DNA of 36,575 nucleotides, from sequence record MZ375294.1. One strand, given 5' to 3'. Below are positions 9,841 through 11,589 of the stretch, in pieces (the stretch's first letter is position 1; each line of letters opens with the position of its first letter). This stretch comes from Escherichia phage T7. The notes beneath the pieces are model-generated. The model worked only from the letters and a program-made list of their open reading frames with translations. It was not told the origin of the DNA and ran no database searches. Position numbers and translations under genes: made by a program.

Positions 9841-9888
9841 ATGCGCAAGTCTTATAAACAATTCTATAAAGAACTAGGAGGGAATTGC
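9841..9888 (+). other. Gene 3.8 remnant: start codon and 10 codons fused in frame to the gene 4A start region
   Basis: ATG at 9841 with RBS GGAGGT; [16 protein letters not shown] reads directly into the 4A ATG at 9889. Confidence 0.75.
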
Positions 9889-11589
9889 ATGGACAATTCG
9901 CACGATTCCGATAGTGTATTTCTTTACCACATTCCTTGTGACAACTGTGGGAGTAGTGATGGGAACTCGCTGTTCTCTGACGGACACACGTTCTGCTACG
10001 TATGCGAGAAGTGGACTGCTGGTAATGAAGACACTAAAGAGAGGGCTTCAAAACGGAAACCCTCAGGAGGTAAACCAATGACTTACAACGTGTGGAACTT
10101 CGGGGAATCCAATGGACGCTACTCCGCGTTAACTGCGAGAGGAATCTCCAAGGAAACCTGTCAGAAGGCTGGCTACTGGATTGCCAAAGTAGACGGTGTG
10201 ATGTACCAAGTGGCTGACTATCGGGACCAGAACGGCAACATTGTGAGTCAGAAGGTTCGAGATAAAGATAAGAACTTTAAGACCACTGGTAGTCACAAGA
10301 GTGACGCTCTGTTCGGGAAGCACTTGTGGAATGGTGGTAAGAAGATTGTCGTTACAGAAGGTGAAATCGACATGCTTACCGTGATGGAACTTCAAGACTG
10401 TAAGTATCCTGTAGTGTCGTTGGGTCACGGTGCCTCTGCCGCTAAGAAGACATGCGCTGCCAACTACGAATACTTTGACCAGTTCGAACAGATTATCTTA
10501 ATGTTCGATATGGACGAAGCAGGGCGCAAAGCAGTCGAAGAGGCTGCACAGGTTCTACCTGCTGGTAAGGTACGAGTGGCAGTTCTTCCGTGTAAGGATG
10601 CAAACGAGTGTCACCTAAATGGTCACGACCGTGAAATCATGGAGCAAGTGTGGAATGCTGGTCCTTGGATTCCTGATGGTGTGGTATCGGCTCTTTCGTT
10701 ACGTGAACGAATCCGTGAGCACCTATCGTCCGAGGAATCAGTAGGTTTACTTTTCAGTGGCTGCACTGGTATCAACGATAAGACCTTAGGTGCCCGTGGT
10801 GGTGAAGTCATTATGGTCACTTCCGGTTCCGGTATTGGTAAGTCAACGTTCGTCCGTCAACAAGCTCTACAATGGGGCACAGCGATGGGCAAGAAGGTAG
10901 GCTTAGCGATGCTTGAGGAGTCCGTTGAGGAGACCGCTGAGGACCTTATAGGTCTACACAACCGTGTCCGACTGAGACAATCCGACTCACTAAAGAGAGA
11001 GATTATTGAGAACGGTAAGTTCGACCAATGGTTCGATGAACTGTTCGGCAACGATACGTTCCATCTATATGACTCATTCGCCGAGGCTGAGACGGATAGA
11101 CTGCTCGCTAAGCTGGCCTACATGCGCTCAGGCTTGGGCTGTGACGTAATCATTCTAGACCACATCTCAATCGTCGTATCCGCTTCTGGTGAATCCGATG
11201 AGCGTAAGATGATTGACAACCTGATGACCAAGCTCAAAGGGTTCGCTAAGTCAACTGGGGTGGTGCTGGTCGTAATTTGTCACCTTAAGAACCCAGACAA
11301 AGGTAAAGCACATGAGGAAGGTCGCCCCGTTTCTATTACTGACCTACGTGGTTCTGGCGCACTACGCCAACTATCTGATACTATTATTGCCCTTGAGCGT
11401 AATCAGCAAGGCGATATGCCTAACCTTGTCCTCGTTCGTATTCTCAAGTGCCGCTTTACTGGTGATACTGGTATCGCTGGCTACATGGAATACAACAAGG
11501 AAACCGGATGGCTTGAACCATCAAGTTACTCAGGGGAAGAAGAGTCACACTCAGAGTCAACAGACTGGTCCAACGACACTGACTTCTGA
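9889..11589 (+). CDS. 4A: Primase-helicase gp4A
   Basis: 566-aa ORF; N-terminal Cys4 zinc-binding motif CDNCGSSD...CYVCEKW; Walker A GSGIGKST; ends DWSNDTDF. Confidence 0.95.
9959..10081 (+). CDS. 4.1: Gene 4.1, small ORF in an alternative frame inside gene 4
   Basis: 40-aa ORF whose position corresponds to annotated T7 gene 4.1; no independent support for expression. Confidence 0.35.
10078..11589 (+). CDS. 4B: Helicase gp4B (internal in-frame start of gene 4)
   Basis: Internal ATG at 10078 preceded by RBS GGAGGT; 503 aa, same frame as 4A. Confidence 0.85.
10978..11000 (+). promoter_or_regulatory. T7 RNAP promoter phi4c (inside gene 4)
   Basis: caatccgactcactaaagagaga. Confidence 0.7.

What the first reader, a model, noticed from the sequence alone, without database searches (positions are those of the whole stretch)
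9841..9891. Gene 3.8 deletion fuses its start codon in frame to gene 4A, predicting an N-terminally extended primase-helicase
The 3.8 start (ATG 9841, RBS GGAGGT, just downstream of phi3.8) is followed by 10 codons, then the junction, then AACTAGGAGGGAATTGC and the 4A ATG at 9889, all in one frame. The track shows a single 582-aa ORF from 9841 to 11589, which is gp4A plus 16 extra residues [16 protein letters not shown]. The extension would sit immediately before the primase zinc-binding domain. The native 4A RBS (AGGAGGG) is still present, so both the extended and normal forms could be made.
Basis: seen in the sequence. Interest (0 to 1): 0.5.

Follow-up and report, generated by a model that had tools for sequence, protein, structure and literature searches.

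The report
Engineered T7 deletion extends primase-helicase ORF
This is a laboratory-made, genome-reduced phage T7 in which a 292-bp deletion of the dispensable gene 3.8 happens to join that gene's start codon in frame to the primase-helicase gene, so a version with 16 extra N-terminal residues is predicted; it is a real but ordinary by-product of engineering, and the extended reading frame is already annotated in GenBank.

Summary
Relative to wild-type T7 (V01146), nt 11254-11545 (292 bp) are missing, with the junction at window 9869|9870 and no microhomology. The intact gene 3.8 start (SD GGAGGT 9829-9834, ATG 9841) is now 48 nt upstream of, and in frame with, the gene 4A ATG (9889). This gives a 582-aa ORF (9841-11589) equal to gp4A plus [16 protein letters not shown].

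The window belongs to the CRISPR/Cas9 genome-reduced T7 mutants of Yuan et al. 2022 (CiPGr). The exact junction occurs in 40 phage records, all 'Mutant Escherichia phage T7 clone' entries MZ3752xx, and in no natural phage. In all 40 the primase/helicase CDS covers the junction.

Three other Δ3.8 T7 constructs do not make this fusion, so it is an accidental outcome (about 1 in 3 by frame) of this junction.

The 3.8 and 4A start sites look equally strong in silico, so the most likely outcome is a mixture of extended 4A (64.6 kDa), normal 4A (62.6 kDa) and 4B (55.7 kDa). No protein data exist, and the GenBank CDS comes from longest-ORF calling. Phage viability shows the arrangement is tolerated.

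Interest is low.

The parts
9779..9801 (+). T7 class II promoter phi3.8 (TAATTGAACTCACTAAAGGGAGA), +1 at 9796 (= T7 11180), intact
   Evidence: V01146 feature table places phi3.8 at 11180. At least 85 nt upstream of ATG 9841 are identical to T7. Sequence checked.
9829..9834 (+). Shine-Dalgarno GGAGGT of gene 3.8, 6-nt spacer (CAAATA) to ATG 9841
   Evidence: Sequence. Predicted duplex with the 16S 3' end is -10.0 kcal/mol, and mean unpaired probability over -15..+3 is 0.48.
9841..9869 (+). Remnant 5' end of gene 3.8 (T7 11225-11253, 29 nt), encoding MRKSYKQFY plus the first 2 nt of the Lys-10 codon
   Evidence: Exact-match extension against V01146.
9869..9870 (+). Deletion junction: T7 nt 11254-11545 (292 bp) removed, no microhomology
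   Evidence: A 40-nt junction probe matches exactly 40 records, all MZ3752xx mutant T7 clones.
9870..9888 (+). Native gene 4A leader (T7 11546-11564) with SD AGGAGG at 9876-9881 and a 7-nt spacer, now also read as codons (K)ELGGNC of the fused ORF
   Evidence: SD duplex -10.7 kcal/mol, accessibility 0.37, same as in wild-type context.
9841..11589 (+). Fused ORF, 582 aa, 64.57 kDa: 16-residue extension plus gp4A
   Evidence: Sibling MZ375287.1 annotates CDS 9841..11589 'DNA primase/helicase' (QZB85423.1).
9889..11589 (+). Native gene 4A (566 aa, 62.64 kDa), identical to T7 gp4A except M316I
   Evidence: PDB 6n7i chain residues 1-566 align to query residues 17-582. Pfam Zn_Ribbon_Prim, Helic-prim_T7_N, Toprim and DnaB_C.
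10078..11589 (+). Gene 4B (503 aa, 55.72 kDa helicase-only form) from the internal start, unchanged
   Evidence: T7 11754 maps to window 10078. SD duplex -11.6 kcal/mol.
9912..9914 (+). Former gene 3.8 stop codon (TAG, T7 11588-11590), no longer reached by ribosomes starting at 9841 because of the +1 frame shift caused by the deletion
9925..10029 (+). Primase zinc-ribbon coding region (fused-protein residues 29-63 = gp4A residues 13-47), immediately downstream of the extension
   Evidence: Pfam PF08273, E = 6.1e-11.

Best explanation
The window is a CRISPR/Cas9-engineered, serially passaged, genome-reduced phage T7 (CiPGr series of Yuan et al. 2022). One of its nine deletions removes 292 bp of the non-essential HNH-endonuclease gene 3.8. 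It keeps the phi3.8 promoter, the 3.8 RBS and the first 29 nt of 3.8 on the left, and the 19-nt gene 4A leader with its RBS on the right. Because 292 = 3n+1, the 3.8 reading frame is shifted into the 4A frame, and no stop lies in between. Ribosomes that start at the 3.8 ATG (9841) therefore no longer stop at the old 3.8 TAG (9912-9914). They read through the 4A start and make gp4A with the extension [16 protein letters not shown] (64.6 kDa). Ribosomes can still start at the native 4A ATG (9889) and at the 4B ATG (10078). Shown: the deletion, the frame, the provenance, and the viability of many clones that carry it. Inferred: that the extended protein is made in amounts comparable with normal gp4A, that it is tolerated as a short tail in front of the zinc-binding domain, and that the fusion is an unintended by-product of the junction rather than designed or selected.
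For: Junction and frame. Provenance: the exact junction occurs in 40 records, all 'Mutant Escherichia phage T7 clone T7_xxxL' MZ3752xx. The paper describes donor cassettes with 2x50-bp arms designed to delete whole genes, and clone names such as T7_300L. The window's other deletions begin exactly at annotated ATGs (1.4, 4.3, 4.7, 5.3, 7.7), as designed deletions would. The deleted gene set (0.4-0.6, 1.4, 1.7, 3.8, 4.3, 4.7, 5.3, 7.7, 19.5) closely matches the non-essential set that a later paper takes from the CiPGr study. The paper lists only gp0.3-0.6, gp4.3-4.7 and gp19.5 as undesigned T7 deletions. Expression plausibility: the 3.8 SD is a perfect GGAGGU 6 nt from the ATG, with duplex energy -10.0 kcal/mol against -10.7 for 4A and similar accessibility. 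The promoter and 5' leader are unchanged. In wild type, ribosomes from the 3.8 start already cross the 4A start, because 3.8 ends 26 nt inside 4A. Accidental nature: three other Δ3.8 constructs give no fusion. MZ318361 also removes the promoter and the start. T7-B keeps the 3.8 frame and yields a 24-aa peptide ending at the native stop. The Bull-lab construct replaces T7 nt 11230-11549 with a transgene. Tolerance: 40 plaque-forming clones carry the junction. Natural homologues differ in the length of the segment before the first zinc Cys (17 in T7, 21 in Erwinia phage L1).
Against: There is no protein-level evidence that the 9841 start is used, in the mutant or in wild type. I found no paper reporting detection of gp3.8. 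The CiPGr paper's main text does not mention 3.8, primase or a fusion, and its supplementary cassette designs were not available, so 'designed junction' is inferred. Five other deletions (1.4, 4.3, 4.7, 5.3, 7.7) start exactly at the ATG, whereas this one and Δ1.7 keep about 30 nt, and I cannot explain that. The GenBank 582-aa CDS comes from a caller that takes the longest ORF (gene 4.7 is also annotated 84 nt too long in the sibling record), so it adds nothing on expression. Function of the extended form cannot be separated from that of normal gp4A, which can still be made. Deposited PDB gp4 chains carry no N-terminal additions, and a single-sequence AlphaFold model was unusable.
Confidence: 0.85

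Rival explanations
1. The 582-aa ORF exists only on paper. The 3.8 start is weak or masked in vivo, so infected cells make essentially only normal gp4A and gp4B, and the extended CDS in GenBank is an annotation artefact.
For: No published detection of gp3.8 was found. A local hairpin (CGCAUU/AAUGCG) can pair the 3.8 AUG while leaving the SD in the loop. The depositors' annotation picks longest ORFs. Transcript levels drop downstream of the R3.8 site late in infection (PMC6938266).
Against: The SD is a perfect 6-mer at optimal spacing. Its duplex energy and accessibility are equal to or better than those of the 4A and 4B starts, which are known to be used about equally (PMC2910064). Every mRNA that carries the 4A start also carries the 3.8 start 48 nt upstream.
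Confidence: 0.25
2. The 292-bp deletion was not the designed homologous-recombination product. It was a spontaneous CRISPR-escape deletion that arose once during serial transfer and swept, which is why 40 clones share it.
For: Unlike five of the other deletions, it does not start at the annotated ATG. The paper reports undesigned escape deletions in T7. The cassette sequences could not be checked.
Against: There is no microhomology at the junction, whereas the two junctions that fall in regions the paper calls undesigned have 3-4 nt. The imperfect TATA repeats flanking the deletion would have given TTCTATAGAAC, not the observed TTCTATAAAGAAC. The paper's list of undesigned T7 deletions does not include 3.8. 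Δ1.7 shows the same pattern of keeping about 30 nt.
Confidence: 0.15
3. The fusion is adaptive. Feeding 3.8-start ribosomes into gene 4A raises or alters primase-helicase output and was selected in the reduced genomes.
For: The allele is present in 40 of the deposited clones, many labelled 'L' for large plaque. The replication genes in this window carry other changes: gp2.5 E193*, gp5 A8D and K404T, gp4 M316I.
Against: Its frequency is explained by Cas9 counter-selection against intact 3.8. Some deposited siblings keep 3.8 (for example MZ375242). Other viable Δ3.8 phages lack the fusion. No fitness data isolate this allele.
Confidence: 0.05
4. Sequencing or assembly artefact, or a natural 3.8-less T7 variant.
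For: None beyond the a priori possibility.
Against: The identical junction is present in 40 independently assembled genomes. It is absent from all other records of the 50,697-record phage collection. The natural 3.8-less relative L1 has a different architecture.
Confidence: 0.02

Closest known systems
CiPGr genome-reduced T7 mutants (Yuan, Shi, Jiang, Ma, Nucleic Acids Res 2022, PMC9825161; GenBank MZ375241-MZ375293, e.g. clone T7_280L MZ375287.1)
   Same: The 3.8/4A junction is identical to the base, the overall deletion pattern is the same, and the 582-aa 'DNA primase/helicase' CDS at 9841..11589 is annotated.
   Different: No listed record has the window's exact length (36,575 bp). The window additionally has gp4 M316I and one synonymous difference relative to T7_280L. 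The paper never discusses the fusion.
Wild-type T7 gene 3.8 / gene 4A / 4B arrangement (V01146)
   Same: Same promoter, same 3.8 initiation region, same 4A and 4B initiation regions. As in wild type, ribosomes starting at 3.8 cross the 4A start, and gene 4 yields more than one product from nested in-frame starts (PMC2910064).
   Different: In wild type, 3.8 is in another frame and stops 26 nt inside 4A. Here the frame is shifted, so the same ribosomes continue into gp4A, adding a third and longer in-frame product.
Other engineered Δ3.8 T7 phages: T7-B (PV223880.1, SMART method, PMC12153263), T7_del_holin_F1 (MZ318361.1), T7dsp3.8 (PMC4128545), T7Δ3HE (bioRxiv 10.1101/2025.09.07.674715)
   Same: Each removes the dispensable HNH gene 3.8 while preserving gene 4A and, in those whose junctions are known (T7-B, T7_del_holin_F1, T7dsp3.8), its leader. 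All are viable.
   Different: T7-B keeps the 3.8 frame, giving a 24-aa peptide that stops at the native TAG. T7_del_holin_F1 also deletes phi3.8 and the 3.8 start. T7dsp3.8 and T7Δ3HE replace 3.8 with a transgene. In T7-B and T7_del_holin_F1 gene 4A is annotated at its native start, and no fusion is described for the other two.
Natural T7-like phages lacking gene 3.8, e.g. Erwinia phage vB_EamP-L1 (HQ728265)
   Same: A phi3.8-like promoter is followed after about 50 nt by the primase-helicase start. The L1 4A ATG lies 71 nt after the lysozyme stop, against 64 nt for ATG 9841 here, so the fused ORF resembles the natural compact layout.
   Different: L1 gp4A has its own N-terminus (MSYGDSQEDGQDSIFLYHIPC, first Cys at residue 21). 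Nothing there is homologous to [16 protein letters not shown].

Membership tests
T7 gene 4 primase-helicase (gp4A/gp4B) | Near-identity to T7 gp4A over its full 566 residues | tested here: met
   565 of 566 residues identical (only M316I). PDB 6n7i residues 1-566 align to query 17-582, E = 0.
T7 gene 4 primase-helicase (gp4A/gp4B) | Domain order: zinc ribbon, T7 primase N-terminal a+b fold, Toprim, DnaB-like helicase | tested here: met
   Pfam PF08273 (29-63), PF21268 (92-150), PF13155 (170-257), PF03796 (306-525).
T7 gene 4 primase-helicase (gp4A/gp4B) | Internal in-frame start with its own SD giving the 56-kDa 4B form | tested here: met
   ATG 10078 with SD GGAGGT, unchanged from T7 11754.
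T7 gene 4 primase-helicase (gp4A/gp4B) | The 63-kDa form begins at Met-1 (MDNSHDS), with no in-frame bona fide start upstream | tested here: not met
   The gene 3.8 ATG with its SD lies 48 nt upstream in frame, with no stop between.
CiPGr-engineered genome-reduced T7 | Junction shared with deposited CiPGr clones and absent elsewhere | tested here: met
   The 40-nt junction probe gives 40 hits, all MZ3752xx. The tblastn search of the extension agrees.
CiPGr-engineered genome-reduced T7 | Multiple deletions at designed gene boundaries of the published non-essential set | tested here: met
   Nine deletions, five of which start exactly at annotated ATGs. The gene set closely matches the list taken from the CiPGr study.
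CiPGr-engineered genome-reduced T7 | Junction equals the synthesized 2x50-bp homology template for gp3.8 | not testable with these tools
   The supplementary cassette tables are not held.
Natural HNH-free ('empty site') allele of the 3.5-4 interval | Occurs in environmental isolates, with a junction at the homing-endonuclease insertion boundaries | tested here: not met
   No non-engineered record carries the junction. L1 lacks any remnant of the 3.8 start.
Programmed alternative-initiation isoform | Upstream start conserved among relatives and its product detected | tested here: not met
   The extension is absent from all natural phage genomes searched. Detection of the product cannot be tested here.

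The most novel reading that the evidence does not exclude
The 16-residue, basic (pI 9.5) extension is made as a major gp4 species in these phages and is functional. This would show that the T7 primase zinc-binding domain tolerates a sizeable N-terminal tail in vivo. By channelling 3.8-start ribosomes into gene 4A, it would also raise the 4A:4B ratio in a way that was favoured during genome reduction.
Probability: 0.07. Interest if true: 0.3.

Novelty: already known. Interest (0 to 1): 0.1.

Why it matters
It matters little for biology. It is a practical caution for phage engineering and annotation. A deletion meant to remove a dispensable gene can silently attach that gene's translation start to an essential neighbour, here the replicative primase-helicase. 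That changes the protein's N-terminus and probably the ratio of its isoforms. The CiPGr mutants have been used to define the non-essential gene set of T7 and to guide later chassis designs. Fitness effects attributed to 'loss of gp3.8' in these clones could therefore be confounded by an altered gp4. Automated annotation has already put the 582-aa form into GenBank as 'DNA primase/helicase' without comment.

Tried and rejected
1. Natural variant or homing-endonuclease empty site: rejected. The junction occurs only in engineered clones.
2. Microhomology-mediated spontaneous deletion: considered. There is no microhomology, and the flanking imperfect TATA repeats predict a different junction. It is kept as a minor rival because the cassette table was unavailable.
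3. Hypothesis that the left arm was shifted to avoid the phi3.8 promoter: rejected, because the Δ4.7 deletion starts at the ATG and its left flank includes phi4.7.
4. Evidence that gp4 tolerates N-terminal tags: PDB chains carry none, and the papers searched did not report tagged full-length gp4. No conclusion.
5. Evidence that gp3.8 protein is made in wild type: nothing found. The proteomics supplement is not held.
6. AlphaFold2 single-sequence model of the extended primase fragment: mean pLDDT 43, uninformative.
7. GenBank's 582-aa CDS as evidence of expression: rejected, since the same pipeline over-extends gene 4.7.
8. The other eight deletions were checked for similar fusions to a bona fide start. 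None was found. Δ1.7 leaves an 11-aa peptide. Δ4.7 only leaves the gene 5 frame open upstream, with no strong SD before the first in-frame ATG at 11924.

Full report
WHAT IS IN THE SEQUENCE. The window contains an ATG-initiated ORF at 9841..11589 of 582 aa that begins [16 protein letters not shown] and continues [23 protein letters not shown].... From residue 17 on it is T7 gp4A. It is identical to the V01146 protein at 565 of 566 positions (M316I is the only change), and it aligns end to end with the solved gp4 chains (6n7i residues 1-566 = query 17-582). Pfam finds the expected order of zinc ribbon (29-63), T7 primase N-terminal fold, Toprim and DnaB-type helicase. I walked exact matches outward from both start codons against wild-type T7. 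Window 9841-9869 equals T7 11225-11253, and window 9870 onward equals T7 11546 onward. T7 nt 11254-11545 (292 bp) are therefore missing, with no shared bases at the junction. In wild type the 3.8 and 4A ATGs are 340 nt apart and in different frames, and 3.8 ends 26 nt inside 4A. After removal of 3n+1 bases they are 48 nt apart and in frame, with no stop between. The deleted segment includes the whole HNH_3 domain of gp3.8 (residues 14-56). The only correction is that the tenth codon straddles the junction (AAG becomes AAA, Lys retained).

WHERE IT COMES FROM. The window is not a natural T7. A 40-nt probe centred on the junction (20 nt each side, so a 28-nt seed can only match across the junction) hits exactly 40 of 50,697 phage records. 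All are 'Mutant Escherichia phage T7 clone T7_xxxL' entries in the series MZ375241-MZ375293. Over the first 25 kb those records are the window's closest relatives. In that study, chip-synthesised cassettes carrying a spacer and a 2x50-bp homology template were used either to delete 100 bp or to delete a whole gene. Phage were passaged 300-600 times, and 91 T7 mutants were sequenced (PMC9825161). Against V01146 the window has nine deletions: 0.4-0.6 (676 bp), 1.4 (exact ATG to stop), 1.7 (536 bp), 3.8 (292 bp), 4.3 (198 bp), 4.7 (exact), 5.3 (338 bp), 7.7 (369 bp) and the 19.5 region (356 bp). Five begin precisely at the annotated ATG and most have no microhomology, which is what designed donors produce. 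The two that lie in regions the paper calls undesigned (0.3-0.6 and 19.5) have 3-4 nt of microhomology. A later engineering paper cites the CiPGr study and lists nearly the same set (gp0.4-0.7, 1.4, 1.7, 3.8, 4.3-4.7, 5.3, 7.7, 19.5) (PMC12153263). I could not see the cassette table, so the statement that the 3.8 junction is the designed one is an inference. Three points support it: the absence of microhomology, the paper's list of undesigned T7 deletions (which omits 3.8), and the similar 'keep about 30 nt' pattern at Δ1.7. I cannot say why these two deletions keep about 30 nt of 5' coding sequence when the others do not.

IS THE FUSION INTENDED OR SPECIAL? Probably neither. An arbitrary junction lands in the 4A frame one time in three. 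Three independent Δ3.8 T7 constructs do not create it. T7_del_holin_F1 (MZ318361.1) also deletes phi3.8 and the 3.8 start, and annotates a normal gene 4A. T7-B (PV223880.1) keeps the 3.8 frame, so the 3.8 start yields the 24-aa peptide [24 protein letters not shown] and stops at the native TAG. An older construct replaced T7 11230-11549 with a transgene (PMC4128545). No natural genome encodes the extension joined to gp4A. In a tblastn search with the first 90 residues, wild-type T7 aligns from residue 3 only because the 4A frame is fortuitously open upstream (...KSLRGFIELGGNC-M). The naturally 3.8-less Erwinia phage L1 puts its 4A ATG 71 nt after the lysozyme stop, close to where T7's 3.8 ATG sits (64 nt), but it has an unrelated N-terminus.

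HOW IT MOST LIKELY WORKS. Shown: promoter, leader and both initiation regions are intact. Inferred: the 9841 start is used. Its SD is a perfect GGAGGU six nucleotides from the ATG. Its predicted duplex with the 16S 3' end (-10.0 kcal/mol) and its local accessibility (0.48) are as good as those of the 4A start (-10.7, 0.37) and the 4B start (-11.6, 0.40). The 4A and 4B starts are used about equally in wild type (PMC2910064). The 4A context is unchanged by the deletion within the folded window. From my own knowledge of the T7 map (Dunn and Studier 1983), the RNase III site R3.8 lies between the phi3.8 start and the 3.8 ATG, and PMC6938266 confirms that order. Every mRNA carrying the 4A start therefore also carries the 3.8 start near its 5' end. 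In wild type, ribosomes from the 3.8 start already run over the 4A start and terminate 26 nt later. In the mutant the same ribosomes continue in the 4A frame. The expected result is three nested products of 64.57, 62.64 and 55.72 kDa, with total primase-proficient protein at least as high as in wild type and a higher ratio of long forms to 4B. The extra 16 residues (pI 9.5, one additional Cys next to Met-1) precede the zinc-binding domain (gp4 residues 1-59). Natural homologues vary in this segment (first Cys at residue 17 in T7, 21 in L1), which suggests but does not prove tolerance. Forty plaque-forming clones show that the arrangement is compatible with growth. Since normal gp4A can still be made, that does not prove the extended form is active.

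WHAT DOES NOT COUNT AS EVIDENCE. In all 40 sibling records the 'DNA primase/helicase' CDS covers the junction, and in MZ375287.1 it starts at 9841. The same annotation starts gene 4.7 84 nt upstream of its accepted ATG, so the pipeline simply takes the longest ORF. The CiPGr paper's text mentions neither 3.8 nor primase nor a fusion. I found no report of gp3.8 detection and none of N-terminally tagged functional gp4. A single-sequence AlphaFold model was too poor to use.

VERDICT. But it is an accidental by-product of a published laboratory deletion, it is already present and annotated in 40 GenBank records, and it sits on one of the best-known phage proteins. It would not surprise a specialist and opens no long-standing question. 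Its value is as a caution: the 'Δ3.8' genotype of these widely cited reduced T7 genomes also alters gp4. Interest 0.1; novelty 'already known'. The most novel reading still open is that the extended form is abundant, functional and favoured. I give that about 7% and modest interest (0.3) even if true.

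Noticed in passing
window 10834-10836 (T7 G12512T): gp4 M316I lies inside the helicase Walker A motif (GSGMGKS becomes GSGIGKS). It is present in the window but not in sibling clone T7_280L (MZ375287.1), which has the same 3.8/4A junction.
   Followed up: partly
window 8350 (T7 G9734T): gp2.5 E193* truncates the single-stranded DNA-binding protein from 232 to 192 residues, removing its C-terminal part. The sibling record annotates the same 192-aa CDS (7774..8352), so the change is shared. From my own knowledge, the acidic C-terminal tail of gp2.5 is reported to be essential, which would make viability of these clones notable. 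gp5 K404T and A8D could be compensatory.
   Followed up: partly
window 12093 and 13281: DNA polymerase gp5 carries A8D, directly after the exonuclease-motif residues D5 and E7, and K404T. A change next to the proofreading site could affect mutation rate during the long passage.
   Followed up: no
window 11924-14185: The exact deletion of gene 4.7 leaves the gene 5 frame open upstream. This gives a mechanical 753-aa ORF, 49 codons longer than gp5, with in-frame ATGs at 11924 and 12017. There is no strong SD before 11924, so it is unlike the 3.8/4A case.
   Followed up: partly
window 6915|6916: The exact ATG-to-stop deletion of gene 1.4 removes the TAA that also forms positions -17 to -15 of promoter phi1.5. 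The promoter now reads TTTTACGACTCACTAAAGGAG instead of TAATACGACTCACTAAAGGAG.
   Followed up: no
window 19915 (T7 22904 G>T): There is a substitution at the position V01146 annotates as the start site of phi10, the major capsid-gene promoter.
   Followed up: no
window 2764, 2888, 3029, 3212, 5062: T7 RNA polymerase has five amino-acid substitutions (R96C, V137A, Q184R, E245G, P862S). Overall, most of the 44 point differences from V01146 are non-synonymous, consistent with long experimental evolution.
   Followed up: no
window 8681-8688 and 36315-36323: Two tight clusters of three substitutions within 8-9 nt: one in gene 2.8 (E70A, L72R) and one just upstream of the 19.5-region deletion. They look like CRISPR protospacer or PAM escape mutations.
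   Followed up: no
whole window (36,575 bp): The CiPGr paper gives its smallest T7 mutant, T7_300L, as 36,937 bp and also as '8.4% reduced'. An 8.4% reduction of 39,937 bp is about 36,580 bp, so the window may be T7_300L and the printed size a typo. Some deposited siblings are smaller still (36,532 and 36,542 bp).
   Followed up: no
L001 (MZ375287.1) record 11969..12460: The depositors' annotation starts gene 4.7 84 nt upstream of the accepted ATG (record position 12053), which shows a longest-ORF calling rule. Other CDS starts in the MZ3752xx records may be similarly over-extended.
   Followed up: partly
window 1-1297 and 36374-36575: The left 1.3 kb aligns to T7 with three gaps (98.0% identity), and the right end is shorter than the reference terminal repeat region. 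The ends were not examined.
   Followed up: no
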